DNA from: Enoplolaimus lenunculus
Lineage: Eukaryota
Length of the DNA: 64,000 bases
Assembly: GCA_030248215.1 (NCBI GenBank)
Contig: JASANG010001881.1
Location: forward strand, 248,001-312,000
Reading direction: 5' to 3'
Part shown: piece by piece, positions 10,720 to 63,911 of the stretch
Position numbering within the stretch: position 1 is the stretch's first letter
Layout of the letters: each line of letters opens with the position of its first letter
Made by a program: the position numbers and the translations under genes
Notes under the pieces: model-generated
The model's database searches: none
The model's input: the letters and a program-made list of their open reading frames with translations, nothing else
What the model was told of the DNA's origin: nothing

Positions 10720-10754
10720 TCGGCCGGGTTTGAAGAAGTAAACTGCAACAAAAA

Positions 10755-17575: not shown

Positions 17576-18010
17576 ATGTTGTCACTGAGAAGTGTTGCAG
17601 TTTTAGCAATAATTGCAGCTGCATGCACGTTTAATTCAAAATTATCAGCCGGTCATCGAGCGAAGTACGTGACAGCTGTCGGTTGGCTACCAATACGGGC
17701 GAATCAAATATTTTTCCGACGTCCAAACCGTAAATTTTTCTTAATGTTTTCAAAAATTCAACTCCAATGCTATAAGTATCAACAAAAAAGGAATCATCAT
17801 CATCATCATCAACAACAACAACACAACATTCGGCATTGTCTAAAAATGATTAATAGATCAGCAACACAAACAACAACAACAACCACGGCGGCGACAACGC
17901 GACAGACGGCAACATTAAAGGAAAATCGACCCGTTTTAAATTTGACGCATGGAGCAATTCAAGCTATTGTTAAGAATTCTGTACCCCCCTTAATGACCGC
18001 TGGTGTCTAA
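17576..18010 (+). CDS. Small putatively secreted protein of unknown family, paralog B (144 aa)
   Basis: Signal-peptide-like start MLSLRSVAVLAIIAAAC; same conserved blocks as 10315..10719; tttcag acceptor about 90 nt upstream (near 17484). Confidence 0.78.
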   Translation: MLSLRSVAVLAIIAAACTFNSKLSAGHRAKYVTAVGWLPIRANQIFFRRPNRKFFLMFSKIQLQCYKYQQKRNHHHHHQQQQHNIRHCLKMINRSATQTTTTTTAATTRQTATLKENRPVLNLTHGAIQAIVKNSVPPLMTAGV

Positions 18011-21994: not shown

Positions 21995-22126
21995 TCACCG
22001 TAAAAGTTTTTTAATTCCAGTAGATATTCCAGCAGTTATTAAAAATACAACTTCAACACAAGATACCACAGACATCCCAAGCGCGAATCCCATTGTTCCA
22101 CCGATGTCGCTAAGTGCATCAGTCAG
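21995..22126 (-). CDS. Exon 43 (probably terminal): DEG/ENaC TM2 pore helix and short cytoplasmic tail
   Basis: tttcag acceptor, phase 0; LTDALSDIGGTMGFALGMSVVSCVEVVFLITAGISTGIKKLLR*. The TGA overlaps a possible donor (CG/gtgaaa), so a further exon cannot be excluded. Confidence 0.9.
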   Translation of the reverse strand: MTDALSDIGGTMGFALGMSVVSCVEVVFLITAGISTGIKKLLR

Positions 22127-25100
22127 CTGAAAATAAGAAGATCACATAATTGAACCAGTCTGCCAGCTTTGCGCGATGCGCAAAAGTACTTACAAACTTT
22201 CCTTTCATAGAACAATCACGTGTATTTCCTACGAAATTATTGTAAACAAAGTAATGCTGGAAAGTTGCCCAAAATACGTATGTAGGGTGTTCCTGTTTTA
22301 ATATATAGATTAAAAACAAAATTACAAGCAATAAGCAAAACCAACGGAGAGGCAGGATAATGTCACCCTGCCTTCAGTCCTTGCATGCTACAAGCTCCGA
22401 ACAAATCCATGGGCATAACGTTTTGGCTTAGGCTCGGCTTAGGCTTAAAAATACAGATTATCCTTCCGGAAATTATTATGTATATTGGCCTCACAAACAG
22501 TATTGGGTGTCGTGCTTACACCTTGCTAACGAGTGACTTATGGTAAGTTAAGGTGAACAGGCCCTGCAACAAAGTCGCACGCCTTTGGCGTTCTCTTAAT
22601 CCGTTTCAATATATGGATATATCCGAAGAATACTGATAAATCTTTTGGCCCATGTAAAGATCAGAGGCGTAACGTTTTTGTGTAAGACTGCAACAGAGTA
22701 AGCTTAAGCTTTAGACTATTTTTTTCGCTTGGCTTAGGCTTAGGAATATGCTCATTACGCTTAGGCTTACGCTTAGGCTTGGACTTAGGTTTAGGAATAT
22801 GCTCATTCTTACGCTTAGGCTTAAGCTTAGGCTTATAGGCTTGTGCTTAGGAGACGCCCCTGTTCTTTACATTGGCCAGTGTTTTGGGAAATCACCAAAA
22901 AAATTTTAGCTGTTAAAGATTTTTTGAACAATAAATCACTCACATCGTATGTTATCTGTTCTGTTAAACTTTGAAATACCATTGATTCAAAATAGATCAC
23001 AACTGCTGCTTTCCCTCTAAAATACATAAAACAAACCTTTTAGCCAGAATAAGGTCCACACACTAGCGGATCCAAAGGGGAACGTGGGGGGGCAGTACGC
23101 CCCTCCGTCAGAGTTTTTTGTGACGAAATGATAACGTCCCTACGTTACAAATTTAGTCCTCAAAATTTTTTGTAAAAAACACAATTTTTACGCTCAGAAA
23201 CTTTTTTTGTGATGAAATGATAAGGTCTCTCTATCTTACAATTTTTCTCTTAAAAACTTTTTGGTGATAAAATAATAAGGTCCCTACGTTACAATTTTTG
23301 CGTTTCATAACATTTGCAAGCCTGCCATTCCTCCGTCAGAAATTTTTGGATCCACTTCTGGCGCCACACTATTAGGGATGTTTAGAAATTTGCTGTCAAT
23401 TAATATATCCAAACAAGAGAATAAAACTAAGTGTATACACTGTAAATTTCAGTGAGTTGATTTTAACTCAGAATGAGTTGAATCCACTCAGATGTCTGAG
23501 CACTGAATTAGGTATTTCAGTACTCAAAATTCTGAAATGATTTAACTCAATGTGAGAACTCACCCAGAATTAAATTAACTCAGAGACTTAATGTTTACTG
23601 TTATTAACTCAGAAATAGCCTGAAATAACCCATTTTCCCTCTGAATTAATTAATCATCTCATTGGAATTTACACTGTATTAAAAAGTTACGGGTTTTAGG
23701 AAGAAATTCTTGAATTCGGTTTATTACAAATCATAAAAAGGGTCACAATTCTAAGTTTATGTGAGATATGCTTGTCCTGGTGCATATACATCATATTATG
23801 TTGTATGTTGGCCGGCAGCATACGTGTCGACAAGTGTAGTCGACTGTAAAAGCAGTTGGAGAAACGGGCTGAGTGGCACAGTGGTAGAGCGTTCGTTTAA
23901 GCATCCATAACTCAGAGTATGACGATCCTTGTAGGATCTGGAGTCCAGGACTTTATACTTAAACTGACAGTGGCACACGATTTATAATGGACACCAAGCG
24001 ACCAGACTAAACGTATTTCAAATGTAAAGGATATCACAGTTAGTGTTAGCAAGAGTGGATAAAAACAAAAGTGTGCAACTCTTTGGGGTTCCGCATAGTA
24101 CAAAACGTATCACCGGGTGTTGCGTTTGTGGAAAGGGGGGTTGGACAAAAACGCAACGCGTGCCGGGTATACATTCGTTTCTACATTGAATGTGCCCAGT
24201 TGCATACTCTTGTTAAATAGCGATTATCCACGCTTGAAGTTAGCGATAACAACTGAACGAAAGAATCAAATGGTTACACAAAGCCTTTAAATTATATACC
24301 CATCTGCTATCTTGTGACGGACCCAGTTGCTGAAAACCTTAGGGTGGGTCGGTTGCTTTCTACCGGTTAAAGTAATACACTGTAGGTCAAATCCAAGCAT
24401 AGTGTTATACTTCAAATGCATATGTGTCACTTCGCAATATACCTTTTATATGCTAATTTATAATTTAAAATAACTTAAAAACAATTGCGATACTTACGTC
24501 AGTTTGCCTTCCTAAAATCAAACCAAAATAGCATTTAATAATTTTAAACATTAAATACCTCTACGAGGTTTATGGTTTTTGAAGGTACATACCTTGGTAA
24601 CCTTTGCTAGATTTTCGAGTTGTCTCTACGCTTGCCGATAAACCAGCGGGTCAATGTTACATTTAGGGGCGTAGAAGTAGTTTAAAGCGTATTACTAAAC
24701 CTAAGCCTAAGCCTTAGCGTTGAAAAGTGTGTTCCTAAGCCTAAACCTAAGCCTAAGCAAAAAAAGTAATTTAGTATCTAAACCTACTCTTTTATACACC
24801 GGCTAGAAACCTGGACGCCCTTAAAAGTAACATGGGCCGACCAGCGGATAGCGTTGCTTTTCGGACAATATACCATGCATTGAAATGGTATTTATAAAAA
24901 TGTTGAATAAATTAAAACAAACCAAACTGGTGTAATATAAATGCATATACGAAATTAATAACATTTGTACAATGTGGTTAAAGCGTACTTACCAAACTAC
25001 TATTAAATACGACCTAGAAGACTTTTGGTAAACGTTAGTTAAATTGTACTTTTTGGCATATGAATCGGATTTTAGATTTTTAGGCAAATTTAAAATTTTG

Positions 25101-28100
25101 AAAGAACCTTAACATTTTGTGGCTGTGAGAACCAGTTGGAAGTATACAAAACGGCATAAACCCAATGCATTGTATTTACTCTGGTTAGTTACAATTACCT
25201 CAGCACTTTGTAGCTTCATCGCCTTTGTTTTTGTCGCTGACACAATGTACCGTTCACTCCTGTATAATTCAAAAATTCAAATTAATTTTTTAATCAAATT
25301 TAGAAAAATGGGTCAGTTGTTTACTTAAAAACAAACTTTATTTTAAAAATAACTGAGCGAGATTCGATTTCGCTTTTCGAAATTTACTATAAGTATAACC
25401 AAAATGGAATGTGGGTATGGAGCTTTTTTACCCGACCCGCGCTTTACTCAAGCAAATAAGAATTTCTTCATGGGGTAATAAGAGGGTGTCCCCATTTTGA
25501 GTCCCAATCAATGAGAGTCCGTATCCCTAATAAAAGTCCGCAAGTGAATAGGACTTTGTGGATCTGACCGGTGTAAATACCCAACACATTCAGCCGTACT
25601 GGAATATAGGCACAAGCGAAAATCTCAACTTATCCCACCATCCTTTTTCAGGGCTACTCGATAGTAGTAGAAATCCCTGGCGGGGGGTGAGATTGTATAA
25701 GAAGTTAAATCTGGGGGGAGATTGTACAAGAGTTCAAATCCGACGGAACATTGCCCAACAGGAGAAAACTGATAGGTTGATAGTCCGGTGGGGCGTGAAA
25801 ATATTGGCACTCAATTAAATCCCTACTTACCAACATGCTTCACGACATATCTTCGAAACTCCTTGTGGAGTCGTTGCTTCCATATCTTCAGCGCATTTTT
25901 CTGTCAATAAATTAATGTAAACATATGGCCGGTGACTTAATAAATAAACAAAATCCTACCCGTGGTAAACTGTAAAAACCTGACCATTAAGCCTAAACCT
26001 AAACCTAACTAGCCAGATCACCTTGTTAGGGTGCTAGAAAAATTTTAAAAGGGGCATTCAAAGGTTTTTAATGACTTCCAATCATGATTGAAAATTTAAT
26101 TTTGTAAATAACTGAAAAATTCTAAATGTAATTATAATACGAGCCCGCATTCTTAACTGTGTGTAGCACTTGACACTAGTTGGTGATAGGTATTGTAACT
26201 TTTGCACCAGACAACCAAAGTTGCTTCTTTCTTAGTTCGGCCAAAGAACAGGGTCGGAACAGTATTATAAGCATATTTGTAAGCCTAAGCCTAAGCCCAA
26301 ACCTAAGTGTAAGAATGAGCATATCCCTTAGGCTAAGCCTAAGCGTAACAATGAGAATATTCCTAAGCCTAAGCCTTAAGCCAAGCAAAAAATTAGTCTA
26401 AAGCTTAAGCTTACTCTATTGCAGTCACACAGAAAAGTATTGCAGTTCCACAGAAAAGCGTTCCTTCCGTAATCTTTAAATGTGTATTTAATTTTTACAG
26501 TATGTTTCTTTCAACCCTGCAATATTTAAAATAAAACATAACCAAAAACTAACTTAATGTCAGTCCACAAACTGTCGAATTTGGTGGTTTAGCAATTTTA
26601 GGATTACTGCAGTTGCACGATCCGATTGTTTCCATTTGTTTCAAACTCAATTCGCAACCCTAAAAGGGTCAAAATGCAATGAACAACAATTAAATTTTAG
26701 GCGAATAAACCAAAACGGCAGGACAGGACGCCGGCGGTTGCCATTTTTAAAGTCAAAAAACTTTGTATAAATTAGAATAAAATATTTAGCCAATGCTATT
26801 TTAAGCGGCGTAACAGTAGATTAAGCGTATTCCTAAGCCTAAGCCTAAACGTTGCAAAAATGAGTCCCTAAGCCTAAGCCTAAGCCTAAGCTTAAGTAAA
26901 AATGCAATCTAGAATCGAAACCTACTCTTTTATAGACCCATCCGAAACCTGAACGCCCCTTAAAGTAACATTCGGTCAAATGTTTTATGAAAAAACAGTA
27001 TTTAGTTCATTGACTTGCAAATTATTAAAATTACATATGGCTTCTGAATAGCTTCGCTTGCAAAGGTTCTTAAACATTAATATATCGCGTCCCAACATAT
27101 GGGTCTTGTTCATTAATACAGCTAATGTGCCCGTTGTTTATGCCTTTTAGCTCGAGCAGCCCATTTTGGTCAGAAATCTTAACTCTCCCGTACCTTGAAA
27201 CGCAATTAGAGCCCCAGCTATAGCTGGGTGTGAACATATTTTTTAAAAACGATGTCGCACGCATTTAAGTACCGAAATCACGCTTAATAATCAGTTTGTA
27301 AAGAATAACGATACTGGCTGGGTTTCTGAAATCTTACTTAAGTATTTACTACAGTTTTTACTTATAAGTATTTAGTCTTAAGTCGCTGAGTTAAAGTTAA
27401 TTTTTGAACAAAAACAAAAAAATAACACAAGTTTGGGGTCAGTGCCATAAACAAGGAAGTCACAGTTTTGCATCATACTGAAGCGGTTCCATGAGTCTAC
27501 AATTTCAACTGAACCATGGATAGCATGCCAGAACTGATAGTACACTGTAAATTCCAATGCGTTGATTAATCAATTCAGCTAGCGAGTTGGTTATTTCTGA
27601 ATTAATATCAGTAACGATTAATTCACTCTGAATTGAGTTGATTCTCGCTCTGAGTAGAGTTGACTCTGGATGAGTTGATTGATGAACTCACAATTAATGG
27701 AATCAACTCACAATTATGAGTTGTGATAGTCCTAACTCAGACTGAGCGATTCAATTTATTCTGAGTTAAAATCAACTCATTCAAATTTACAGTGTATTTA
27801 ATTCATTACATTTACGTGAACAACCTAAATATTTGCTTAAGTACACTTGCAGAAACAATAAATACTTTAAGCATGAAGTTGTACTTAAATAATGTTTTTT
27901 TGAATCCCAGCTGTTGAACCTCAAATTGGCTTGGAATATTCCTTTGGTTTCTGAATGGAGCTTAAAGTAAGCTGAATTAAGCTAAACTTTAAATTTATCC
28001 GTATGGACTTTTAAAAATCTTACAAACGATGAATATCCACCGGCATAGTAGTAGTGGTCAATTTCTGATGTCGAATTAATACACGTTCCGCCTTGTTTCG

Positions 28101-55100: not shown

Positions 55101-58100
55101 ACTGACGAATTTGTAACCAGCGGTGGATCGGAACAAATTTCTGAAATTAAATTTAAATTTTCTTTTTAGGCCGCGCCAACCCACCGTTTGCCTTTTTAGA
55201 ATAATCCAGGGGGGTACCAACAAGCTTCAATCAGAATAGCCCAGTGGACAAAGTACAATCGATGATACTTGAGTTATTCACTCAAATGACGTTACGCACA
55301 GCGGATGTCCTTGAAAATATTTTTCTCGTCTTATCAGCTAACTTTGATGGTATGGGTTACCTTCACCACATATATCCTGATAGCTAACAGCGTCGACTTA
55401 CTTGCACAAACGGGCGCCCCAAAATCGAACGTTTCTCGATCCAAGCATGTAAGCATTGAGTTACCGACCAGATAATAGCCAAGATTACACGAATAGGTAA
55501 CTGTGCTATTTTCAACTACAGGGTCACTGCTTGCTACGTAAGAACCATTCGGAACGTTTGATATTGTATCACATCGGCCTGAAAAAAATTCAAAAATTCA
55601 AATTAAAAATTTAATAAAATTCAGAGGTGGTAATAAGGGGTCGCATGGTCAGTCCCAGGCTCCGGGTGAATTTTTGCCGGGGTTTCGAATTTTTTGTACT
55701 TTAGTCTGTTCGTAAATTTCGGGCAATTTTCGTACAGTAAATTGTCGAAATATGTGAAAAATTGTAATCACAATAATTGTTTTTGGTCATCACTTTATGG
55801 ATTATTAAAATTTCAAAAATTCGTGTAACTTTAGCCATTTAATTTTATTACATCTCCAACGCTGGCTTCGGGTTCGGTTGCGGTTCCGGGTTTATCACTT
55901 TCTGCTGCACTTGAATATTTAAATAATTGTGCTGAGTTTTCAAAAACATTGTGCTTGGTATTGGTAAACAGTTGCCGAACCGAAAACACAACACATAAAC
56001 TGTAGTATGCTTTAAAGTTTCGAACTCAACTTTATTTGGTTCTGGAAACATTTATGCACTACAATTAGACATAATTGACATTTATGGACTCTAATTAGGG
56101 TTCAGTGACTCTATCCGCTTACGGACTCTTATTGCAATTACGGGCTCCTATTGAATGGTACTCAGAATACGGACCCCCTCTTATTACCCCACTCTTATTC
56201 GGGTCCCTACTGTAGGTGCTTATTACATTGACTTACAAAAAAACCTAAATACATTAAAAATGTTTAAGGCAGGGATCACAACCAAATACTGTATTAAGGT
56301 TTACCACTTAGGCCGTCCCCCATTTCCGAAATTTGTGCACCCACCACAGCCCTGAACACAAAACTCACCGAGACACATCGGAACACTAATGTTATACAAA
56401 CCAGTGTCCAGGCACTCCAAAACAGAAGATCCTACCATAAACCAGCCGTCATTGCATATATAAGTAGTTGTCATACCTTCGTACATTGGTGAGGCACTGT
56501 CAGAAACACTGCCGTCTGATATAGTTGCACCCGCTGGGCAAATTTCTAAAATTACAAAGTTAATGATTTAACAAAATGTTTGAAAAATGTTAAATTTTGA
56601 AAATTACATAGCTAGGCTTTTGGTAAAATTTTAAAAGATAGGTAAATCTTGAAAATTATATAGCTCGGGTGGCCCATGTATAGAACAAGTTCTCCCCAGT
56701 TTTACGGGTAATATCTCAATTTTCCAATATCCCAAAATCCCAATTTCCCAAAATCCCGAGCAAAAAAAAATGCGCCGAAAATTGCAATGTCTCGGCGAAG
56801 GCAAAATCCATATTTCTCAAAATCCCAATTTCTCGGGTATATCCCAATATCAAAATTTCCCAAAATTAGGAGCGAAACAGGTTCCGCCCGAAATCGGAAT
56901 TTCCCGACAGAATCCCAACTTCCCTGGTAATATCCGCGGATTTTTGCAGGGACCTCTCCAGTACATGGGCCGCTAGAGTTTGGATAAAATTATTGAAAAC
57001 TGATATCACTCGACAATTGCCATACCTTACATGTGGTTTGATAAAATCTTAAATATATTAACTTTTCAAATTAATTTAAAAATTTGAGGGCGAGATTCTG
57101 TCACAAGATATTCCGTTTCATCTGCGCCTGTTGCACAGTCTTCCAAAAGTATACAAACCTCAGTAATTTGATGAAATTTGAGAACAAAATACATTTTATA
57201 AAATTATATAAAAGCTGAAAAAATAATTGGTTAAAGTTTTTAAATATTTCAAATAAAACTGTTATCAGCAAGCAATTGTTTTTGCTTTTCAAATATTTAA
57301 TTTATTGTTAAACACCCAAGTCTGACAGGTTTTAGGGACAAAACATTTTGCCCTTTCTGGCACCGTTAAAAGTACCCCTACCGGCAGAACACGCGAGTCA
57401 AACGCTAGTGTTTACCCCAAACAATGATGGTACTCAATCTATATTAATAACATTAACGAAGAAAAGTGCTAACTACGTCTACTTTATAACAAGAGTGCAT
57501 GGTTCAAGAGTGAGCAACTCTTGGAGTTCCGCATGGTACAAAATGTACCACCGGGCGTTGCGTTTTTGGCCGACCTTCCTTGTTTAGAGGGGGGTCGGTA
57601 TCACATGAAAACCCCTAAATTATACAATTACGGAAGCATGTTTGATGCCGCATACATAAAGTGCCATGGTTCGCACCTGGTGTGCTCCTTCTAAATAAAG
57701 GGGGGTAGGGTAAAAACGCAACGCGTGCCGGATACATTCTTTTCTACACAGAATGTGCTCAGTTTCATACTCTTGTTAAACCGCGATTATCCACTCTTGG
57801 TAATAGCAAATGGAAATAATTGCAGGATGATGCAACCGGTTCGTGGATTACGCGAACATTTCGATTTGAGTTCATCGCAGTAGCGAGGATTTTTGAAGAA
57901 ACTGGACGTCTTAAAGTTGGATCAAAGGGGGTTTCTTAATTTGCCTACTGAAAAAGTGTCTAAAACCCAAACATGGCAAAAAACAGCGGAATGAGTTCTG
58001 AACCATAAAGACATTTCTTGGCTAAGTTTCTGCTTTGCTGGGTTTACTTTGACAAATTGGTTCGTCATAATCGTAAGTTCCGTTCAGTTGACACGTGAGT

Positions 58101-61100
58101 ACAGGTTGACCAAGCATGTGATATCCAGAATCACAAGTATACGTTATGAAAATTCCGTCAATAACATCCGCATCCGGTACACTTTGAGTGAATGACCCGT
58201 TAATCAACGTCGGAGCCGGACATATTTCTAGAATTTAAGTACTTTTTCCACTACACTAATGCTAATTTGATACAAGTCGAACATTTCTCAATATTATTAA
58301 TCATTTCTGTCGTAAGTCTAAGCATAAGCCTAAGCTTAACTCTATTTTACCGGTACGTTATCTGCAAGGGGGTAAACGTTTTGGCCCATGTACAGAACAG
58401 GGCCGGATCGTTTTCCGCAGGGGCTATAATAGAGTCAGATTAAGCTTTAGACTAAGTTTTTTGCTTACGCTTAGGCGTAGAGTTAGGCTTAGGCTTAGGA
58501 ATATGCATATACTACTGTTCCGACCCTGTTCTATACATGAGCCAACGTTTTGATGACAGTGATTCAGTACCAGACAATTATTTACTACAAACAAAATTTT
58601 GCGCACATTATGTTTTAACCATTTCTCGCATGAATATTTTCTATTTTAGCAGACTCGAACACATGTCTCAAGCCAAGAAGATGTTTGCCATCAAAACTCA
58701 GATATAGCAGCTTGACGCTCGAGTGCGTGTATGCTCACGTGTGGTGAAGATTTTGTACTGCATATACGTGTATTAATTATGCAAACTGCACAATAACTTG
58801 CGTGCAACATCGGTTGCTGAAACAGGAAGCTTGGAAGATTCAGGGATATGCGATCCTTGACTGATTAAAATCGCTCGCTACAGTTGCCGATTCCCTACTT
58901 TTGAGGCGTTCGCAGGTTTATCTTATTGAAATATCTTATTACTATTCATCTGGTTGAAATCTTAGCCTGTATTCTCACATGTGTGTAGCACCTATTACCA
59001 GTTGGTGACAAGTCCTGTAACTTTCGAATCAGAGGATTGCGAGATGAAAATTGAGCACATTTGTTGTATTCGATTTATACTGTACTTCTGTGTAAATTTG
59101 AGATCTGCAAGTGCAGCAGTTCGTTCAGTTTGAAAACCTATTACTAACCTGATGGTAGGTGCTATATTCAATTGAGAATATAGGCCATGATCACTAGCTG
59201 GACTCTACTCAATGTAGAGAATGACTTATAAACAGAAATTGAAATTTTTTCCGTTAACCATTTCTCTTAATACCAGATCAAGATATAACCATTAATAATG
59301 AACTTACTTTTGCAAACAGGTGCTGTGTAATCGTAAACTGCCGAACGCAGGCATGTAAGTACCGGTTGACCCACCAAGCTGTACCCGGAAGTGCAAGTAT
59401 ACGTTGCATTAACCGGATATATGATAGGAATCGACGTATCTGATAGTAAATACGATGCGTGTTCAACATCCGCCGGATTTGAGCATATTTCTGAAACAAA
59501 TAAATATTCAAAAATGTATGGCTTTGTTTGAGAAAACTTGAAAAATATAATCACAACTTTTCGTTTTTCAAATGTTGCATCATTTGAAAAATTTAGTGTT
59601 TCCAAAAATCGAATTTTTCAAAAATTTAAAATCTGGGCACTAATATTAAGCTAAAGCGGTTATAATTAATGCCTAAATAACGTTTTGACAAAAAAGCCAC
59701 TTTATTAATATCAATTTGCTATTCGTTTTTAATTTTTGAATTTCGCCTGAAACGGGATTAAAACAGTGTTTTATTGTTGACACAATTATTAAAATCTCAA
59801 AAACTTGAAATATGGCAAAATTTTCTCAGTTGGATATGAATGAAACCAACGTACCAGCACAATATGGGGCGGGCGAATCAAATATTCGGTCCTTTGTACA
59901 CATAAGGGTGCCGGAGCCTTCAAGGAAAAAACCCGAGTCACACGTATACGTTACCGTTGAATTTTGAATTATTGGAGTTGAACTTTGAACGTAAGTTGAA
60001 TTGATGACACCAGGAACGGTGGAACAAATGCCTGAAAATGTACATTTGAACTTTATTTCAAGAGCAGATACAGGGAATGACTCGGTCAATAATATATAGC
60101 CCCCTCTTTGAACGTAGCTAATACTAGGAATGAACACAAGCTTAGCTTGTTTTGCGAAGCTTTCAGGGTTCAGAATCTACATTTACGAATTAACATACCC
60201 AAAGTTACCCCCTATCAATAATTCTAGATTAGCCAATTAAAATATAGTTCATTAACTGTAACCCCCAATGCTATTTGTTTAAAAAAAGTTCACACAAAAC
60301 TATTAAAATTAGCAACACCCTTGTTTCGGATATTTGATAATACACAAGCTTTAATCACCAAGTCAACTGGTACAATAGATGCTACACACATTTGAGAATA
60401 AACATCACCGATTTACCTGAACAAAACGGCAGGGTCAAATCGTAGCCGCCTGTCGGTGTACACTGCCGTGTTGGCGTCCCAACCAAATGATAACCACTGT
60501 CGCACGCAATATCAACGGAAACTGTTTCGTAAATCACAGAAATTGACGAGTCAACAAAACTCCAAGATCCGTTTGTAATACTGGGTGTAAAGCAGATTTC
60601 TAAAAAAATAAAATATTTTTATTATTAATTTTAACCCTTTCTCACATGAATATTTTCTATTGTCCCTGAGACCTATTTTTATGCTAGGATTAGAACTCCA
60701 GTGACTGGAGTGGAGGCGTATACCATCACCACTCAGCTATAGGAGCTTGACGCTCGAGTCCGAGGGGGCTCTCACGTCTTGTGGTGATTTAGTACTATGT
60801 ATACGTGTTGCAATTGTTAAACACGATGCGATATATATTATTTAACGTACATACACTGCGCTAAGTTGCCTTGTCATTTTTATATGAAAAATACTGATTA
60901 TATAGAAGCAGGGAAGAAACTAAGGAGGCCTGAATTTTCCACTAAGCGCCTGATCGTTTTTAATATTTTTCAAAAATTTATTTTAAAAATAGTTTTCTTT
61001 ATTATCGACCTAAAAGCTATCGCCATCCTCGGTGGACAATCCCGAAATTCAGTTCTGTGTGAAATGACTGTTTAGCAGTGGTCCATAGCAGGATATACAA

Positions 61101-63911
61101 AGACAAGTGTATAGGGAACGAATACCGTCTAAATAGCTGAAAAAGTACAGAAAATGGACGGATGTACAGGATAAGGATGTCGCTATACTTTTGACGACGT
61201 CCGGCACTGTATGTCGCTACCCGTCATCGTGCGCCACCATACGGTATCAAACGCGAATTGCTCACATACGATACAGGATGGTGACGGACGACGCCGGACG
61301 TTGCCACACGTCACATATAAGGCCATCCTTAAGGAGCCTAAGACCCTTGGTTTTGAACCTCAATAATAAGCACGAGACATATCACTTACTCATGCACTGA
61401 GGGGCAGATAGATCATACGCTCCACTGGGCATGCAAATTAGCGTAGGCGATCCAAATAAATGATATCCAGGATCGCATGTATACGTCACGCTGATTGGAC
61501 GAATAATCGGAGTTGATGTGTCATTAATTGCATAATTTCCGTTTACAACCACTGTGGGTGTCGGACAAATTGCTAAAATTCATTTTGAAAAAATATAAAA
61601 TTATGCCAAATAATAGTTGATGTTAATAAAATACAATTAAAAAAATCAAAAATTCTAAAGCCCCAATTCACTCGTGCAAGTTTTTGCAGCAAGAAGCAAG
61701 GTATTTTCAAAGGAACATTTGGATTGACCAATCAAACTGCAGGTGCAAGAAATTCAAGCGACTTGAAACTGCGTTCACAGGTGCTAATTAAATTATATTG
61801 CATGAATTCCAGTGCATTAATACTTACCTGCGCATACTGGAGGATCATAATTGAACAATTGTGTATCAAGACACGTCAGAATCGCTTCGCCAATAAGATA
61901 ATAATTCGCTGCGCAGGTATACGAAACAGTGATATTTTCAATTACAGGGTTGCTACTTTCTACGTAAGTTGCAGAGTTAACATTTGGTATATTGGTGCAT
62001 ATTCCTGAAATTTTATAATATTAATTGTACTAAAAATGGGTTTTTCTACAGGAACAACTTTGATTTAAGCTTAAAAGTAAGGATTAGACTTAAGTTTAGG
62101 TTTAAGAAAAAACTTAGGCAAACGAGAAGGCTTGTGCTTAGCCATAGGTAAGCATATGATGTTAGCCTGAGTCTAAGCCTAAACCTAAACATAAATAAAT
62201 ATGATGGGATGTGTTCAAGAATCAAAATTACTTTAAAATATCTTGTGAAAAGATTTCCGTCGGTAAACTTGTAAGATTTAGAATTTATTTTTCAAAATTT
62301 CGACACGTATTTTAAGTAGGATTTCAGGACAGAACAGTTTTTAGGAATTGCAAAGTTTTGGCTTCAGGTAAAAGTTTATGCTTAAACTTAAGCAAGAGTT
62401 TCTGCACTAGGTTTTATCTTAAGGTTAAGGTTAGTCTTAAGGATAACATTAAGAAGGTTACGTTAAAAGTTACGTGAATTTTAGGCAAAACAAAGCAGCA
62501 TCTGGCTATGGTTATCACCACGGTTGCTTTATATACTGGCTAAGCTTAGAATTTTTTTAAAAATTAAGCCAATTTTAAATAAATCACCAAATTTTTCTAA
62601 GCGGAACGGCCTATTTGACAGGGTGCAATCGAGATTCCGATTCAGATTAGAATTTCGATTCAATTCCGATTCCGATTGCACAATCAGTCGAAATCAGAAT
62701 TTTGCTATTTTAATTTTAAAGCTACTTGATGTGATACGTTGCATAAAAATTTTGTATTATTTATGTATTAAATTGCTTTCGTTGAGTTAACTTATCAATA
62801 ATGGATTGTAGTTTAGCTTTACTTAACCAAAACTCATCGCCAATTTGATCATACTACCTTTTTGAAAATTGTTACCACCCAACAGACACCCAAATCAATA
62901 TTATGTCATTACAAAATATCCGTACAGCCACAAAAGTTCCAGTTCCGATTCCGATTGAGATTACAATTCCAGTATAAGTTTGCTGTTCCGTTTCCGATTC
63001 CGGTATAATCCAGTTCCGCTTTGCACCCTGCTTATTGAGTGTAGTATTCCTGTATATTTTTAGGCTAACATTCAAACACCTTTGGTTTAGGATTTAGGCT
63101 TAAGCCATAAGCTAATTTTTTCATTTTAGATAATTTTTTAAAAAAGTAATTAAATTTCACCTGAACAAAACGGCAACTGACTATCGTAACCGCCACTGCT
63201 GGTACAAGCTGAAGACGCAACTCCAACGAGAAAATAATCCGTTTGACAACTGAAGCTCACCGAGATTCCATCGTAGACTTCGGTTTGCGTCGGTCCAATA
63301 TAATTCCAAGCGCCATATGGAATATTGGGATTAGGACAGATTTCTGAAACATTTTTATCAATAAAGCCTAAGAGTGCCGTATGCCCGTAGCCAGCTCACC
63401 TTGCTTGGTAGGCTAAAACATTTTCAAGAAGGGCATACAAGGGTTTTCGTTGACTTACAAACAAGGTTGATAATTTTCTAAGGCGGGGCAAAGTTCAGCT
63501 AAACAAAGTTAATTTATTGAAGTTATTTTGACAAATTTTACTCATCACATGATGGAAGCAGAAATTTATTAATTTAAAACAATTAAATTACGAAAAATTC
63601 AAATTTGGGTATGGAATGATTAGCACTGTTCGTCGTAAGCTCAAATCAACAATTTTCAAAATACGACAATTTTTGGCAATCGCTAGCTGACAGACTATAG
63701 TCAAAAGTCCGTTTTGCTAAAGGATATTTCATACTTAAACAACTCGGAGCCGGAACATCGTACAGTCCAGATTGTTGACAAATCAATGTTGAACTTCCGT
63801 TCATGTGATATCCCGCGTCGCATGTGTACGTCGCATTCTCCGGATTTATTATCGGTGATCCGCTGACGACAAAATTTCCATTACTCACCGTGTCCGGTGT
63901 CGGGCAAATGG
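21995..63911 (-). CDS. 5'-partial multi-exon gene: >=29 Sushi/CCP modules + 3 EGF-like modules fused to a DEG/ENaC/ASIC (ASC family) channel C-terminal ectodomain and TM2
   Basis: 43 exons with GT-AG boundaries and matching phases, summed length 6677 nt (2 nt of a split codon + 2225 codons incl. TGA). CCP consensus C-x(25-30)-[YF]xC-x-x-GY-x-[LM]-x-G-x(4)-C-x(5)-[YF][DN]-x(3)-P-x-C. EGF consensus. DEG/ENaC motifs GYTL..C.W, FGNCYTFN, GxxxGL, GFK..H, CxC thumb, IYFES, LSDIGG..G..GMS..E. Individual exons are listed below. Confidence 0.9.
22647..22877. mobile_element. TTAGGC-carrying MITE
   Basis: ggcccatgtaaagatcagaggcg ... cgcccctgttctttacattggcc. Confidence 0.8.
22944..23016 (-). CDS. Exon 42: DEG/ENaC pre-TM2 strands
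   Basis: 73 nt, phase 2-0, ttttag/gtgagt; GKAAVVIYFESMVFQSLTEQITYD. Confidence 0.9.
24498..24511 (-). CDS. Exon 41: 14-nt micro-exon (EGKL-T)
   Basis: gattttag GAAGGCAAACTGAC gtaagt; phase 0-2, the phase change needed between exon 40 and exon 42. Confidence 0.7.
24993..25013 (-). CDS. Optional 21-nt micro-exon candidate (VVFNSSL), not counted in the 43-exon model
   Basis: phase 0-0, ttctag/gtaagt; frame-neutral, so not required by the model. Confidence 0.35.
25199..25259 (-). CDS. Exon 40: DEG/ENaC palm strand after the thumb
   Basis: 61 nt, phase 2-0, atacag/gtaatt; SERYIVSATKTKAMKLQSAE (CxxxxY spacing typical of the family). Confidence 0.8.
25831..25900 (-). CDS. Exon 39: DEG/ENaC thumb, C-terminal part
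   Basis: 70 nt, phase 1-2, tgacag/gtaagt; KCAEDMEATTPQGVSKICREAC(W). Confidence 0.85.
26554..26659 (-). CDS. Exon 38: DEG/ENaC Cys-rich thumb
   Basis: 106 nt, phase 0-1, ttttag/gttagt; GCELSLKQMETIGSCNCSNPKIAKPPNSTVCGLTL. Confidence 0.9.
27543..27794. mobile_element. TA-flanked MITE with CACTGTAAATT ends and aactca/tgagtt internal repeats
   Basis: ta|cactgtaaattccaatg ... tcaaatttacagtg|ta; about 10 copies: 11161-11398, 23438-23676, this one, 29450-30327, ~31110-31281, 31590-31837, 32245-32470, 32614-32856, 33008-33257, 37291-37542. Confidence 0.82.
28024..28122 (-). CDS. Exon 37: DEG/ENaC, entry to the thumb
   Basis: 99 nt, phase 0-0, tttcag/gtaaga; TQMTMLPPKQGGTCINSTSEIDHYYYAGGYSSF (LPxPxGxC...YS-like). 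Confidence 0.9.
28210..28631. mobile_element. hAT-like MITE (CAGGG ends, ttccgg/ttccga subterminal repeats)
   Basis: cagggttcca ... tggaaccctg; perfect 8-bp TSD CTAAACAC. Confidence 0.85.
29061..29221 (-). CDS. Exon 36: DEG/ENaC palm/beta-ball
   Basis: 161 nt, phase 1-0, tttaag/gtaagt; LWMTLDAKPDLYSSLIESVGFKINFHTPGIAPFPEYEGTIVLPGYQNLFSLKY. Confidence 0.93.
29513..29818. mobile_element. Palindromic MITE (tgcatcgtt...ttttgccaccgaaaa ends), TAA TSD, nested in a CACTG-ended element
   Basis: TAA duplicated relative to the uninterrupted host copy at 33008-33257; second copy at 36219-36534. Confidence 0.8.
29902..30229. mobile_element. MITE with CAAGAGTG ends, second insertion in the same host element
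   Basis: caagagtgcatgatac ... atccactcttg; relatives at about 24050-24236, 30563-30760, 35562-35873, 57490-57799. Confidence 0.78.
30777..30871 (-). CDS. Exon 35: DEG/ENaC ectodomain, FGNCYTFN motif
   Basis: 95 nt, phase 2-1, tttaag/gtaatt; LDFYHPQFGNCYTFNGNITNRFVTSRAGMDE(G). Confidence 0.93.
31289..31527 (-). CDS. Exon 34: acidic Pro/Thr linker and start of DEG/ENaC ectodomain
   Basis: 239 nt, phase 0-2, tttcag/gtaagc; ENSQEPDAPAGETTTGAPGAVTEEEKLEPPPMTVESLQANIREMTKFFVEEQSDEVKKSMGYTLKESVQTCVWRRKECT(W). Confidence 0.88.
33008..33257. mobile_element. CACTG-ended TA-flanked MITE
   Basis: Complete TIRs and TA flanks. Confidence 0.82.
33304..33390 (-). CDS. Exon 33: linker between EGF region and channel ectodomain
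   Basis: 87 nt, phase 0-0, tttcag/gtaagt; KEEAKQEVAAVLSELFTEPLISIPGPVID; higher GC than flanks; phase matches both neighbours. Confidence 0.72.
34013..34101 (-). CDS. Exon 32: truncated calcium-binding-type EGF module 3 (4 Cys only)
   Basis: 89 nt, phase 1-0, tttcag/gttagt; IDECESSPCDENAECIDYVNGYSCLSTAK. Confidence 0.8.
34399..34512 (-). CDS. Exon 31: calcium-binding-type EGF module 2
   Basis: 114 nt, phase 1-1, ttttag/gtacgc; TDECKEQPCHVSAECIDLHLNYTCKCAPGYTGYHCDS. Confidence 0.9.
34886..35068. mobile_element. TTAGGC-carrying MITE
   Basis: Family ends, degenerate TSD taaatttc/caaatttg. Confidence 0.78.
35896..36030 (-). CDS. Exon 30: EGF-like module 1
   Basis: 135 nt, phase 1-1, tttcag/gtaagt; LMEGFKSCEDFGENLCANDGDCVMSNDTYYCYCKPGWVGEDCSV (6 Cys, CxCxxGWxGxxC). 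Confidence 0.9.
36690..36866 (-). CDS. Exon 29: Sushi/CCP 29
   Basis: 177 nt, phase 1-1, tttcag/gtacgt; inside ORF 36631..36894 (TCPDPVFIPNGEH...YDYPEPKCE). Confidence 0.9.
37291..37542. mobile_element. CACTG-ended TA-flanked MITE
   Basis: Complete TIRs and TA flanks. Confidence 0.82.
37574..37750 (-). CDS. Exon 28: Sushi/CCP 28
   Basis: 177 nt, phase 1-1, ttttag/gtgagt; ICLDPTNAEGLEWTPSGRPIATGITVSFVCLTDYYLKGEPMLTCLESGEYDLEQPVCA. Confidence 0.88.
38105..38284 (-). CDS. Exon 27: Sushi/CCP 27
   Basis: 180 nt, phase 1-1, tttcag/gtaagt; inside ORF 38082..38297 (ICGMPPDISGGSF...YQPEAPVCE). Confidence 0.9.
38735..38923. repeat. Short dispersed direct duplication (46-bp block plus 18-bp block)
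   Basis: cggacatttgaaattgcaacgctcaaaattggtgcacaagtagggc at 38735-38780 and 38860-38905, each followed (the first after an A-rich gap) by aaatcaaacgcgaacaat. Confidence 0.85.
39383..39556 (-). CDS. Exon 26: Sushi/CCP 26
   Basis: 174 nt, phase 1-1, ttgcag/gtaagt; ICPNPVDIANGGFTADTVVYDGLTVTYTCNDGYSLVGNAVRTCGSSAVYDNEEPLCK. Confidence 0.9.
40015..40191 (-). CDS. Exon 25: Sushi/CCP 25
   Basis: 177 nt, phase 1-1, ttgcag/gtgagt; inside ORF 40001..40207 (ICPDSPVVEHATF...YDTNAPVCK). Confidence 0.9.
40858..41490. repeat. Long degenerate inverted repeat / foldback-type element (caccc...gggtg ends)
   Basis: ccgcgtctaaa..tttgaaaaatt..ttttaaggtcccaag mirrored by ttggaaccttaaaa..aatttttcaaaa..tttagacgcgg; centre tcaaataactgatttg / caaatcagttatttga. 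Confidence 0.7.
41533..41709 (-). CDS. Exon 24: Sushi/CCP 24
   Basis: 177 nt, phase 1-1, tttaag/gtatac; ICADPPDVAYLSWTPASRPIIENVTVTYSCDAGFHMLGSQTIACTINGGYAEDSPTCS. Confidence 0.86.
41768..41951. mobile_element. TTAGGC-carrying MITE with a near-pure (TTAGGC)n core
   Basis: ggcccatgtatagaacagg ... ccttgttatatacatgggcc. Confidence 0.8.
42290..42475 (-). CDS. Exon 23: Sushi/CCP 23
   Basis: 186 nt, phase 1-1, tttaag/gtaaag; ICSTPDTISNGAFTTSNADGTPIVDGDIATYSCNVGYHMIGVASLTCTATNIYDQESPVCI. Confidence 0.88.
42728..42907 (-). CDS. Exon 22: Sushi/CCP 22
   Basis: 180 nt, phase 1-1, ttttag/gtatgt; inside ORF 42666..42920 (ICPDLANITNGYY...QADHTYDVMPPECK). Confidence 0.9.
43431..43503 (-). pseudogene. Degenerate tRNA-Ile(AAT)-like sequence or tRNA-derived SINE head
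   Basis: GGCTGCGTAGCTCAGTGGTTAGAAC-A-GCGGA-TTAATAA-TCCGT-ACATC-ATGGG-TTCGAAC: A box, B box and anticodon arm intact; acceptor and T stems pair poorly. Confidence 0.6.
43570..43758 (-). CDS. Exon 21: Sushi/CCP 21
   Basis: 189 nt, phase 1-1, ttttag/gtatct; ICPDPTPVTFATAARSQSDVSIPLVNGDTVTWACDANYHMLGGNVAICLVDGTFDVGPPVCK. Confidence 0.88.
43846..44120. mobile_element. PIF/Harbinger (Tourist)-like MITE with tgcaag/cttgca repeats
   Basis: TIR agccctattcacacgtgca; TAA on both sides; relatives at 18109-18383, about 5488-5810, about 19000-19282 and fragments near 15200-15330 and 61660. Confidence 0.82.
45876..46049 (-). CDS. Exon 20: Sushi/CCP 20 (variant: YTA instead of YTC, extra Cys at the NG turn)
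   Basis: 174 nt, phase 1-1, tttcag/gtaagt; ICEDPSVPSCTFTTTSTPIIDAVIVSYTANVDYYVVGTNSITCLQNGTYDNAYPVCE. Confidence 0.88.
46911..47090 (-). CDS. Exon 19: Sushi/CCP 19 (alternative in-frame acceptor gives exon start 47237, from a 147-bp tandem duplication)
   Basis: 180 nt, phase 1-1, tttcag/gtattg; inside ORF 46888..47127 (VCPTPSISNGSY...YDYAEPVCK). Confidence 0.88.
46961..47254. repeat. 147-bp tandem duplication covering the acceptor and 5' part of exon 19
   Basis: 46961-47107 vs 47108-47254, one visible mismatch (synonymous ACC/ACT). Confidence 0.92.
47541..47723 (-). CDS. Exon 18: Sushi/CCP 18
   Basis: 183 nt, phase 1-1, ttttag/gtatta; inside ORF 47512..47736 (ICPDPTTVSNGGF...YDNAVPVCE). 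Confidence 0.9.
48400..48576 (-). CDS. Exon 17: Sushi/CCP 17
   Basis: 177 nt, phase 1-1, ttatag/gtacgt; ICSNPVQISNGNVSLAFNPVYEGITVTYACDVGYFLIGSATLTCLQADQYSADWPICK. Confidence 0.9.
49074..49348. mobile_element. Non-autonomous DNA transposon (MITE), GG-ended TIRs, internal TTAGGC-type array; Merlin-like by end/TSD pattern
   Basis: TIR ggcc(a/c)atgtaaaga(a/t)caggggcg; perfect 8-bp TSD ATTACGCG on both sides. Confidence 0.85.
49775..49951 (-). CDS. Exon 16: Sushi/CCP 16
   Basis: 177 nt, phase 1-1, tttcag/gtacac; ICPTLDLLGNGTYIANDSPVYEAVTVTHTCNSGYYLVGDSVLTCLATAAYDLSQPVCK. Confidence 0.9.
50930..51106 (-). CDS. Exon 15: Sushi/CCP 15
   Basis: 177 nt, phase 1-1, ttttag/gtaagt; ICPAPSAVQFASHNATANPMFDGQTVTYSCNSGYHMLGPPMLTCNSDFVYDINTPVCK. 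Confidence 0.9.
51404..51611. repeat. Tandem repeat, 52 bp x 4 identical copies
   Basis: Unit gttgaaaatcgcacgcgattggttgttcacgatgaacatacaaaggttttcg. Confidence 0.95.
52124..52303 (-). CDS. Exon 14: Sushi/CCP 14
   Basis: 180 nt, phase 1-1, ttgtag/gtaaag; QCSSSIQIGNGTVVFSTTPVYEGSTATFSCDASFHLVGPNAVLTCQADHTYNYGAPVCR. Confidence 0.88.
53069..53251 (-). CDS. Exon 13: Sushi/CCP 13
   Basis: 183 nt, phase 1-1, ttttag/gtaacc; inside ORF 52968..53267 (ICPPVPVVPFSSH...YDRTPPVCK). Confidence 0.9.
53894..54067 (-). CDS. Exon 12: Sushi/CCP 12 (variant: YTA instead of YTC, extra Cys at the NG turn)
   Basis: 174 nt, phase 1-1, tttcag/gtaaga; ICPSPVSANCGYNVTSSPIIDQVSVAYTADTGYYLVGSQSLTCLLSGLYDGDYPVCE. Confidence 0.88.
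54161..54882. repeat. 41-bp minisatellite, about 17 copies, filling most of the intron between exons 11 and 12
   Basis: Consensus ttttcccacgatacttatcgacgcacattggactagaacaa. Confidence 0.95.
54958..55140 (-). CDS. Exon 11: Sushi/CCP 11
   Basis: 183 nt, phase 1-1, tttcag/gtaagt; ICSDPPLVTNSSVVISDTSTPIIEPITLTYTCNSGYHMIGETVLTCQFHGVYNFAQPVCK. Confidence 0.9.
55402..55578 (-). CDS. Exon 10: Sushi/CCP 10
   Basis: 177 nt, phase 1-1, tttcag/gtaagt; RCDTISNVPNGSYVASSDPVVENSTVTYSCNLGYYLVGNSMLTCLDRETFDFGAPVCA. Confidence 0.9.
56369..56545 (-). CDS. Exon 9: Sushi/CCP 9
   Basis: 177 nt, phase 1-1, ttttag/gtgagt; ICPAGATISDGSVSDSASPMYEGMTTTYICNDGWFMVGSSVLECLDTGLYNISVPMCL. Confidence 0.9.
56671..56971. 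mobile_element. MITE with the same ggcccatgta ends but an aatccc/tttccc-rich interior
   Basis: ggcccatgtatagaacaag ... cctctccagtacatgggcc; degenerate TSD gctcgggt/gctagagt. Confidence 0.7.
58048..58227 (-). CDS. Exon 8: Sushi/CCP 8
   Basis: 180 nt, phase 1-1, ttctag/gtaaac; ICPAPTLINGSFTQSVPDADVIDGIFITYTCDSGYHMLGQPVLTCQLNGTYDYDEPICQ. Confidence 0.9.
58383..58543. mobile_element. TTAGGC-carrying MITE (same family)
   Basis: TIR ggcccatgtacagaacaggg / ccctgttctatacatgagcc; perfect 8-bp TSD AACGTTTT. Confidence 0.85.
59308..59490 (-). CDS. Exon 7: Sushi/CCP 7
   Basis: 183 nt, phase 1-1, tttcag/gtaagt; inside ORF 59267..59605 (ICSNPADVEHASY...YDYTAPVCK). Confidence 0.9.
59855..60031 (-). CDS. 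Exon 6: Sushi/CCP 6
   Basis: 177 nt, phase 1-1, tttcag/gtacgt; inside ORF 59826..60137 (ICSTVPGVINSTY...DSPAPYCA). Confidence 0.9.
60417..60599 (-). CDS. Exon 5: Sushi/CCP 5
   Basis: 183 nt, phase 1-1, ttttag/gtaaat; ICFTPSITNGSWSFVDSSISVIYETVSVDIACDSGYHLVGTPTRQCTPTGGYDLTLPFCS. Confidence 0.9.
61390..61572 (-). CDS. Exon 4: Sushi/CCP 4
   Basis: 183 nt, phase 1-1, ttttag/gtaagt; ICPTPTVVVNGNYAINDTSTPIIRPISVTYTCDPGYHLFGSPTLICMPSGAYDLSAPQCM. Confidence 0.9.
61828..62004 (-). CDS. Exon 3: Sushi/CCP 3
   Basis: 177 nt, phase 1-1, tttcag/gtaagt; ICTNIPNVNSATYVESSNPVIENITVSYTCAANYYLIGEAILTCLDTQLFNYDPPVCA. Confidence 0.9.
62619..63030. mobile_element. hAT-like MITE
   Basis: cagggtgcaa ... ttgcaccctg; degenerate TSD ctatttga/cttattga; attccg repeats. 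Confidence 0.72.
63161..63343 (-). CDS. Exon 2: Sushi/CCP 2
   Basis: 183 nt, phase 1-1, tttcag/gtgaaa; ICPNPNIPYGAWNYIGPTQTEVYDGISVSFSCQTDYFLVGVASSACTSSGGYDSQLPFCS. Confidence 0.9.
63735..63911 (-). CDS. Exon 1 (first in window): Sushi/CCP 1
   Basis: 177 nt, phase 1-1, ttgcag/gtatga; ICPTPDTVSNGNFVVSGSPIINPENATYTCDAGYHMNGSSTLICQQSGLYDVPAPSCL. Confidence 0.9.

What the first reader, a model, noticed from the sequence alone, without database searches (positions are those of the whole stretch)
21995..63911. A DEG/ENaC-family ion channel fused to a giant array of at least 29 Sushi/CCP modules plus EGF modules
Seen: 43 phase-consistent exons join about 1,730 aa of tandem CCP modules and three EGF modules in frame to clear DEG/ENaC motifs (FGNCYTFN, thumb cysteines, IYFES, LSDIGG..GMS), and the array continues off the window edge. 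Established: typical DEG/ENaC subunits are roughly 500-900 aa, and C. elegans has EGF-plus-ASC (egas) genes, so EGF fusion has precedent. I do not know of a described channel with a long CCP array. Inference: this may be a channel with a covalently built-in extracellular tether or ligand-binding antenna. It would replace the separate matrix proteins (MEC-1, MEC-5, MEC-9) proposed to couple to MEC-4/MEC-10.
Basis: partly seen in the sequence, partly recalled or inferred. Interest (0 to 1): 0.92.

Follow-up and report, generated by a model that had tools for sequence, protein, structure and literature searches.

The report
Half ion channel with Sushi rod
A nematode-like gene strings at least 29 Sushi modules and three EGF modules in frame onto the rear half of a DEG/ENaC sodium channel, likely making a relative of the worm EGAS proteins that would need a small partner subunit to form a pore and likely uses its long rod to anchor the channel in the matrix around a sensory ending.

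Summary
On the minus strand, 29 phase 1-1 Sushi exons, three EGF exons (the third cut to four cysteines), a linker exon and ten DEG/ENaC exons form a 43-exon, stop-free chain of 2,224 aa that runs off the window edge. No transcript was available, so the join rests on splice sites and frame. This is the build of C. elegans EGAS-1 to -4 (hydrophobic N-terminus, EGF repeats, rear channel half), and several motifs point to EGAS/degenerin kinship. The Sushi array, with Tyr/Phe for the usual Trp in all 29 modules, found no precedent in my limited searches. Two short C. elegans proteins, probably DEGL-1/-2, consist of exactly the missing front piece, and degl genes share IL2 neuron subtypes with egas genes. 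Best reading (0.45): a split channel whose rear half carries a matrix-anchoring rod. Main rival (0.25): a complete channel with TM1 beyond the window edge. New variant of a known kind.

The parts
36690..63911 (-). Array of 29 Sushi/CCP exons, all phase 1-1, 174-189 nt, four Cys each, three residues between modules; open at the 5' end (89 nt of intron to the window edge). Exons: 63911-63735, 63343-63161, 62004-61828, 61572-61390, 60599-60417, 60031-59855, 59490-59308, 58227-58048, 56545-56369, 55578-55402, 55140-54958, 54067-53894, 53251-53069, 52303-52124, 51106-50930, 49951-49775, 48576-48400, 47723-47541, 47090-46911, 46049-45876, 43758-43570, 42907-42728, 42475-42290, 41709-41533, 40191-40015, 39556-39383, 38284-38105, 37750-37574, 36866-36690
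   Evidence: CCP fold of module 1
47091..47237 (-). 147-nt tandem duplicate of the acceptor and front part of module 19; use of the upstream acceptor stays in frame
   Evidence: (99% match)
35896..36030 (-). EGF exon 1 (phase 1-1, six Cys)
   Evidence: PF00008 25.4 bits
34399..34512 (-). EGF exon 2 (phase 1-1, six Cys)
   Evidence: 34.7 bits
34013..34101 (-). EGF exon 3, truncated after the fourth Cys, phase 1 in, 0 out
   Evidence: 22.2 bits, profile 1-22 of 32; acceptor 18.9, donor 8.0
33304..33390 (-). Acidic linker exon, phase 0-0
   Evidence: 9.4/7.1; codon score in top 2.3% of 916 intron windows; other open frame -0.62
32124..32221 (-). Orphan open stretch with CNTN and VPEL, like the degenerin beta2-alpha1 segment; not in the best chain (phase 2 in, 1 out, weak acceptor)
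31289..31527 (-). Linker end and finger helices with the C-x6-C pair, phase 0-2
   Evidence: 15.1/8.3; no Pfam hit on its own
30777..30871 (-). Channel exon with FGNCYTFN and TSRAG
29061..29221 (-). Channel exon, palm and beta-ball strands
   Evidence: (30 of 30 Atlas hits in PF00858 clusters)
28024..28122 (-). Channel exon, first thumb Cys with CINS and SEI..YYY motif
26554..26659 (-). Thumb exon
25831..25900 (-). Thumb exon
25199..25259 (-). Channel exon after the thumb
24498..24511 (-). 14-nt micro-exon that restores the frame (0 in, 2 out)
   Evidence: 9.1/7.8
22944..23016 (-). Channel exon with IYFES
21995..22126 (-). Last exon: SDIGG, TM2 with G-M-S filter motif, short tail, stop codon
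   Evidence: (PF00858 28.6 bits, cut-off 23.6)

Best explanation
The minus strand carries 29 Sushi exons, three EGF exons and the rear half of a DEG/ENaC channel in one open frame, which likely encodes a single EGAS-type membrane protein that is predicted to have only one membrane helix, would need a small DEGL-type partner to supply the missing front piece of the channel, and likely uses its long Sushi rod to anchor the channel in the matrix of a sensory ending. Shown: the exons, their phases, the domain identities, one hydrophobic helix, no HG/TM1/beta2 inside the window. Inferred (about 0.88): one transcript. Inferred (about 0.65 of that): the unseen N-terminus is a signal peptide, as in EGAS. 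Inferred: a partner made of cytoplasmic N-terminus, HG loop, TM1, beta1, beta2 and alpha1 docks into the gap, its beta2 cysteine pairing with the kept GNCYTFN cysteine, three such pairs forming the trimer. Inferred: the modules, joined by three-residue linkers, acidic and glycosylated, form a stiff rod of roughly 100 nm (module length recalled) that binds cuticle or matrix, fixes the channel in place and may pass strain to the finger domain, where it is attached.
For: Frame and splice sites: EGF3 leaves in phase 0, unlike the 31 exons before it, and meets phase-0 acceptors; all six sites from EGF3 to the first channel exon score 7.1-18.9, inside or near the top of the range of confident sites. 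No start exon, TM1 or HG in the junction, with or without the transposon copies. Channel half looks maintained: it aligns to a DEG/ENaC profile at E 5.9e-12 and has lost two thumb cysteines that pair with each other in ASIC1 (pairing recalled; positions). Array under constraint: pN below pS in 406 of 406 module pairs. EGAS kinship, by eye against PMC10507113 supplements: EGAS start with a short hydrophobic stretch, then EGF repeats, lack HG/TM1/beta2 in the trimmed alignment and keep GNCFTFN; CINS occurs once in that alignment, in EGAS-4 at the matching place; same C-x6-C thumb spacing and same 15-residue tail after VE.(V/F)F as EGAS-4. Partner: Q7YTI3 and Q7YX13 are short C. elegans proteins with HG, TM1 and FPSITFCN that end just after alpha1; degl-1 shares lateral IL2 with egas-4, degl-2 shares dorsoventral IL2 with egas-1/-3 (PMC9478639); P. 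pacificus degl and egas are all in IL2 (10.64898/2026.09.04.749377). CCP arrays cluster ion channels in LEV-9, Hig, Hasp (PMC9083331).
Against: No transcript, no N-terminus and no partner gene of this organism were seen. The EGAS motifs were picked by eye after the fact, without a tree; TSRAG at the matching place points to Trichinella MEC-10 instead, and the window keeps features that EGAS lost (finger Cys pair, PFP, IYFE, SDIGG), so it may predate loss of TM1. That Q7YTI3/Q7YX13 are DEGL-1/-2 is my inference; no call maps the ids. The bioRxiv text gives the degl-1/degl-2 subtypes the other way round from the PNAS paper. EGAS gave no current alone in oocytes, but neither did MEC-4, MEC-10 and 13 others, so this says little. 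The orphan stretch 32221-32124 may be a beta2 remnant, which would weaken the need for a partner's beta2.
Confidence: 0.45

Rival explanations
1. A complete two-helix DEG/ENaC subunit whose HG, TM1, beta1 and beta2 lie beyond the window edge, with the Sushi-EGF array inserted in the finger domain; the array is then a giant loop or antenna on a self-sufficient channel.
For: The channel sequence resumes in the finger, where inserts end in other family members; hemichordate entries in PMC10507113 supplements carry cysteine-rich repeats (LDLa-like by eye) right after PAVTICN with TM1 intact. The post-EGF ectodomain has 11 Cys, leaving the GNCYTFN Cys unpaired. The pore motifs (Asp of SDIGG, G-M-S) are more canonical than in EGAS.
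Against: EGAS keep the same cysteine without beta2, so it does not decide. EGF next to the channel half, the CINS motif and the short tail match EGAS. A loop of 29 or more modules would have to return to its start.
Confidence: 0.25
2. An EGAS-type protein that is not part of a conducting pore: the channel half serves as trimerisation core and membrane anchor for an adhesion or matrix-organising Sushi rod, or as a modifier subunit of ordinary degenerins.
For: 78% of the residues in the window are Sushi modules (1,734 of 2,224); the HG lower gate is missing (its role: PMC10148893); EGAS homomers gave no current.
Against: The TM2 gate aspartate and filter motif are intact, which is not expected without a pore; DEGL-like proteins keep HG and TM1.
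Confidence: 0.15
3. Two neighbouring genes or a decayed locus: a secreted Sushi-EGF protein ending after EGF3, next to a channel fragment.
For: Reading through the EGF3 donor gives six more residues and a stop. Merged gene models are common in this family: two of four hits are fused beetle channel predictions.
Against: No AATAAA in the 622-nt intron after EGF3; junction introns are of ordinary size (median 736 nt, longest junction intron 1,776); no start, signal or TM1 exon for a second gene; no stop in ten channel exons.
Confidence: 0.1

Closest known systems
C. elegans EGAS-1 to EGAS-4 (EGF plus ASC domain; Q9U1T9, Q9U1T8, Q9XTS9, Q20852)
   Same: EGF modules joined to a channel half that begins in the finger; no HG/TM1/beta2 seen; GNC(F/Y)TFN kept; C(I/V)..SE(V/I)..YY motif; C-x6-C in the thumb; very short tail.
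   Different: EGAS are 883-919 aa where lengths were shown with many EGF repeats and no Sushi seen in the first 400 residues; this protein exceeds 2,224 aa, has 29 or more Sushi and three EGF, and keeps the finger Cys pair, PFP, IYFE, SDIGG and G-M-S that EGAS have partly lost.
Nematode degenerins (MEC-4/MEC-10 type; T. spiralis MEC-10, C. elegans DEL-1)
   Same: GNCY.FN followed by N....R..SRAG, PFP, thumb layout.
   Different: They have cytoplasmic N-terminus, HG, TM1 and beta2, longer tails and no Sushi or EGF array.
C. elegans Q7YTI3 and Q7YX13 (probably DEGL-1 and DEGL-2)
   Same: Not homologous to the chain but complementary: they hold HG, TM1, beta1, beta2, alpha1 and stop. The orphan stretch 32221-32124 resembles their CNTN...VPEL.
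   Different: No such gene was found in the window (weak profile).
LEV-9, Hig, Hasp (CCP-array proteins that cluster acetylcholine receptors)
   Same: Tandem CCP modules next to an ion channel; 8, 5 and up to 17 modules (PMC9083331).
   Different: They are separate secreted proteins acting on Cys-loop receptors; here the array is longer, fused, and has Tyr/Phe for the conserved Trp.
Hemichordate DEG/ENaCs with repeat inserts after beta2
   Same: Modular extracellular repeats in front of the finger helices.
   Different: They keep TM1 and beta2, and the repeats are LDLa-like, not Sushi.

Membership tests
DEG/ENaC channel subunit (PF00858) | ASC-domain sequence with colinear palm, beta-ball and thumb motifs | tested here: met
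DEG/ENaC channel subunit (PF00858) | TM2 with gate aspartate and G-x-S filter motif | tested here: met
   SDIGG and G-M-S in 22126-21995; role of these motifs in PMC10148893
DEG/ENaC channel subunit (PF00858) | TM1 and HG re-entrant loop | tested here: inconclusive
   absent from the chain and the junction; the 5' end lies outside the window
DEG/ENaC channel subunit (PF00858) | beta2 motif FPxxTxCN with its cysteine | tested here: inconclusive
   not in the chain; possible remnant at 32221-32124; could lie beyond the edge
DEG/ENaC channel subunit (PF00858) | Trimeric, amiloride-sensitive cation current | not testable with these tools
   needs expression
EGAS subgroup | EGF modules directly before a channel half starting in the finger | tested here: met
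EGAS subgroup | N-terminal hydrophobic leader instead of cytoplasmic N-terminus and TM1 | not testable with these tools
   gene runs off the window; no genome held
EGAS subgroup | Common descent of the channel half with EGAS | tested here: inconclusive
   motif comparison by eye only: CINS, thumb spacing and tail fit EGAS, TSRAG fits MEC-10; no tree
Sushi/CCP module (PF00084) | Four cysteines, about 60 residues, CCP fold | tested here: met
   four Cys in 29 of 29; 28 of 29 above cut-off; model pLDDT 87.8, TM about 0.75-0.8 to beta-2-glycoprotein I, E-selectin, CD55, CR2
Sushi/CCP module (PF00084) | Conserved tryptophan before the last cysteine | tested here: not met
   0 of 29 have W, 29 of 29 have Y/F; a derived subtype, fold kept

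The most novel reading that the evidence does not exclude
EGAS-type proteins are the rear halves of naturally split DEG/ENaC channels: a small DEGL protein supplies HG, TM1, beta1 and beta2, and the rear half, freed of its first helix, gains a signal peptide and an exchangeable extracellular rod. This gene is an extreme case, a mechanosensory channel with a covalent tether of 29 or more Sushi modules, about 100 nm long, reaching from the finger domain to the cuticle.
Probability: 0.3. Interest if true: 0.88.

Novelty: new variant of a known kind. Interest (0 to 1): 0.66.

Why it matters
The tether model for degenerin gating lacks an identified link between channel and matrix; a subunit with its own rod lets one shorten or delete the tether directly. 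The missing front half points to a concrete, cheap test for the orphan EGAS channels of C. elegans, whose function is little known (PMC12867699) and which were expressed without a DEGL partner in the one screen I read: co-express EGAS with DEGL. A split DEG/ENaC would be a new way to build this channel family and would explain how its ectodomain could gain large modular arrays.

Tried and rejected
No genome is held for this window. No RNA holder was listed, so no reads were laid. Word-index protein searches with single channel exons found nothing (5 and 9 candidates, none passing); they cover proteins up to 2,000 aa only and would miss the full product. The Sushi-profile search gave 212 proteins, 120 listed; 0 of 120 carry PF00858 and none matches the channel half (best E 0.72). 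The full HMMER search with the 43-aa TM2 exon gave 4 hits: two merged beetle channel predictions and two unnamed fragments; EGAS itself did not appear, so power was low. The metagenome scan gave one chance bacterial-looking match. Atlas search with the 33-aa CINS exon gave only weak unrelated hits. PDB sequence searches with single exons gave E 0.11-0.18 (TM2) and 0.26-0.34 (palm) to DEG/ENaC chains and nothing relevant for the finger exon. Rejected readings: the arginine-rich frame of 33390-33304 with a furin-like site (codon score -0.62); a TM1-like exon at 32615-32556 (weak acceptor at a transposon end, score -0.94); a micro-exon at 31856-31837 (score -1.54); the unpaired cysteine as proof of an upstream TM1 (EGAS keep it too). 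No regular higher-order period in the array (mean identity 0.36-0.40 at lags 1-15). The EGAS-DEGL complex could not be folded because those sequences are not among the session's proteins. Earlier scan notes held nothing on this gene.

Full report
Observation. The gene lies on the minus strand. A scan for AG..GT exons in phase 1-1 with four cysteines finds 29 between 63911 and 36690, none on the plus strand and none in 10 shuffles. 28 of 29 pass the Pfam Sushi cut-off, the other scores 19.0 against 20.7. A profile of the 29 finds no further full module in six frames, only a 147-nt duplicate of the front of module 19. Three EGF exons follow; the third stops after its fourth cysteine and leaves in phase 0. 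A linker exon and ten channel exons complete a 43-exon chain of 2,224 aa with no stop. Four channel exons hit PF00858 in order, only the TM2 exon above cut-off; the joined rear part aligns to a small DEG/ENaC profile built from two beetle proteins at E 5.9e-12, from thumb to TM2. The first module is preceded by 89 nt of intron, so the gene runs off the window. The host looks like a nematode: TTAGGC occurs 146 times and 31 of 43 acceptors end in TTTCAG or TTTTAG (the link of these motifs to nematodes is recalled).

The junction. With splice models trained on 39 acceptors and 38 donors of this gene, the six sites from EGF3 to the first channel exon score 18.9/8.0, 9.4/7.1 and 15.1/8.3, against ranges of 1.7-19.3 and 2.8-12.6. 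EGF3 is the first exon to leave phase 1, and its phase 0 fits both the linker exon and 31527-31289. The linker exon's codon score is reached by 2.3% of 916 open intron windows; its other open frame scores -0.62. Introns there are of ordinary size and have no excess of AATAAA. Against this: reading through the EGF3 donor gives six residues and a stop, so a secreted form is possible, and no RNA could be laid. I put one transcript at about 0.88.

What is missing. The chain has a single hydrophobic helix, at its end; the best window elsewhere is 1.27 on the Kyte-Doolittle scale. No HG, TM1 or FPxxTxCN appears in the chain or the junction, also after removing four transposon copies; the profile used there is weak, since it also misses most true channel exons. 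One loose end: the open stretch 32221-32124 reads CNTN then VPEL, like the beta2-alpha1 segment of degenerins. The pattern was met in 0 of 3,000 simulated junctions and not in 30.5 kb of other introns, but I chose its second half after seeing the match. Its acceptor is weak (2.2), its codon score is intron-like (-0.34, though one true exon scores -0.32), and no good bridge leads into it. It may be a remnant or a rare exon.

The array. All 29 modules have four cysteines and three residues between modules. All have Tyr or Phe where Sushi modules have a tryptophan (0 W, 29 Y/F); none of the 25 best-scoring database proteins shown was of this type throughout. The fold is kept: a model of module 1 has pLDDT 87.8 and matches beta-2-glycoprotein I, E-selectin, CD55 and CR2 with TM about 0.75-0.8. 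Modules are 36-40% identical on average, at best 63%, with saturated synonymous sites and pN below pS in 406 of 406 pairs (uncorrected): an old array under constraint. It is acidic (155 D+E, 45 K+R) with 27 N-glycan sequons; no RGD or RxxR site occurs in the chain. Short linkers suggest a stiff rod of about 100 nm (inference; module length recalled).

Kinship. In the supplements of PMC10507113 (passages of files 1, 2, 4, 11, 12; sequences cut at 400 letters, the untrimmed alignment too large to read), EGAS-2, -3 and -4 begin with a short hydrophobic stretch followed by EGF repeats, and in the trimmed alignment all four EGAS lack recognisable HG, TM1 and beta2 but keep GNCFTFN. EGAS residues from about 400 to 520 I saw only in trimmed form. 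CINS occurs once in that alignment, in EGAS-4 at the place matching exon 28122-28024; TSRAG at the matching place occurs once, in T. spiralis MEC-10 (line breaks can hide matches, motifs picked after the fact). Thumb spacing C-x6-C and a 15-residue tail match EGAS-4 (with the primer). The window keeps canonical features that EGAS lost: finger cysteine pair, PFP, IYFE, SDIGG. So it belongs near the nematode degenerin/EGAS group; membership of EGAS proper is open without a tree and a 5' end. The same files hold hemichordate channels with repeat inserts after beta2 and an intact TM1, the precedent for the main rival.

Mechanism. Two short C. elegans entries, Q7YTI3 and Q7YX13, consist of a cytoplasmic N-terminus, HG, TM1, beta1, FPSITFCN and alpha1, and then end (I saw 7 of 17 places with the C. 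elegans tag). That is the piece that EGAS and this chain lack. I take them to be DEGL-1 and DEGL-2, which PMC9478639 (passages) calls small transmembrane proteins with an ASC domain and places with egas-4 in lateral and with egas-1/-3 in dorsoventral IL2 neurons; the id match is my inference and the paper's supplement could not be read. In P. pacificus one degl and nine egas genes are expressed in IL2 (10.64898/2026.09.04.749377, passages; supplements closed; it gives the C. elegans degl subtypes the other way round). EGAS alone gave no current in oocytes, as did 15 other subunits, and that paper does not mention DEGL (PMC10424705, passages and section 15). The HG loop forms the lower gate (PMC10148893, passages). 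My best reading is therefore a split channel: a DEGL-type front half completes the sheets and pore, and the rear half carries a rod that binds matrix, holds the channel in place and may load the finger. CCP arrays do cluster channels in LEV-9, Hig and Hasp (PMC9083331, passages). Every step after the exon chain is inferred; no partner gene was seen in this organism.

Novelty. EGF plus ASC is known (also PMC5203786, passage; PMC12867699, passages: little known of function, 11 genes in P. pacificus). For Sushi plus ASC, full-text searches gave 0 papers, and degenerin + sushi gave 4 whose titles and abstract starts do not concern it (listing only); searches also gave 0, the latter with a phrase that cannot match a slash. 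Six Sushi-like motifs gave five matches, none in a Sushi module by eye, in the first 400 letters of the entries of one supplement (numbered to at least 1,045). 0 of 120 listed Sushi proteins carry PF00858. These are weak negatives: no InterPro query, a 2,000-aa limit and short queries. PMC7933985 and PMC9822975 (passages) added nothing.

Verdict. The feature is real, most likely one gene, and best filed as a new variant of the EGAS kind rather than a whole channel with an antenna. Odds: split channel with anchoring rod 0.45; complete channel with finger insert 0.25; non-conducting anchor 0.15; separate or decayed genes 0.10. Interest 0.66, carried by the size of the array and by the direct test it suggests for EGAS with DEGL.

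Noticed in passing
PMC10507113 supplement file 11, entries Q7YTI3 and Q7YX13: Two short C. elegans proteins that are the front piece of a DEG/ENaC subunit (HG, TM1, beta1, beta2, alpha1) and complement what EGAS lack; candidate halves of a split channel.
   Followed up: partly
window 54067-53894 and 46049-45876 (-): Modules 12 and 20 both replaced the second Sushi cysteine by alanine and gained a new cysteine near position 10, keeping four; they are each other's best match (54%).
   Followed up: partly
window 10315-10719 and 17579-18010 (+): Two paralogous single-frame ORFs of 134 and 143 aa, 34% identical over 106 aa (E 7e-12), both ending in VPPLMxAGV; no Pfam family.
   Followed up: partly
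window 10746-11001: Long (CAA)n-type repeat, about 76 copies, right after the first of those ORFs.
   Followed up: no
window 33257-33003, 32856-32613, 32476-32240, 31837-31585, 37542-37291, 27794-27543, 23676-23438: About 250-nt miniature inverted-repeat elements with CACTGTAAAT ends, mostly flanked by TA; four sit in the EGF-channel junction.
   Followed up: partly
throughout, e.g. window 7871-8319, 22636-22878, 26242-26440, 38951-39138: A second repeat family in about 20-25 copies with internal TTAGGC runs; interspersed repeats cover 27% of the window.
   Followed up: no
window 54150-54890 and 51404-51611: Intronic minisatellites: 41-nt unit x18 and 52-nt unit x4 (100% match).
   Followed up: no
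P0121, P0122: Public beetle protein records of 901 and 2,330 aa that hold several channel copies in one chain, most likely merged tandem gene models.
   Followed up: partly
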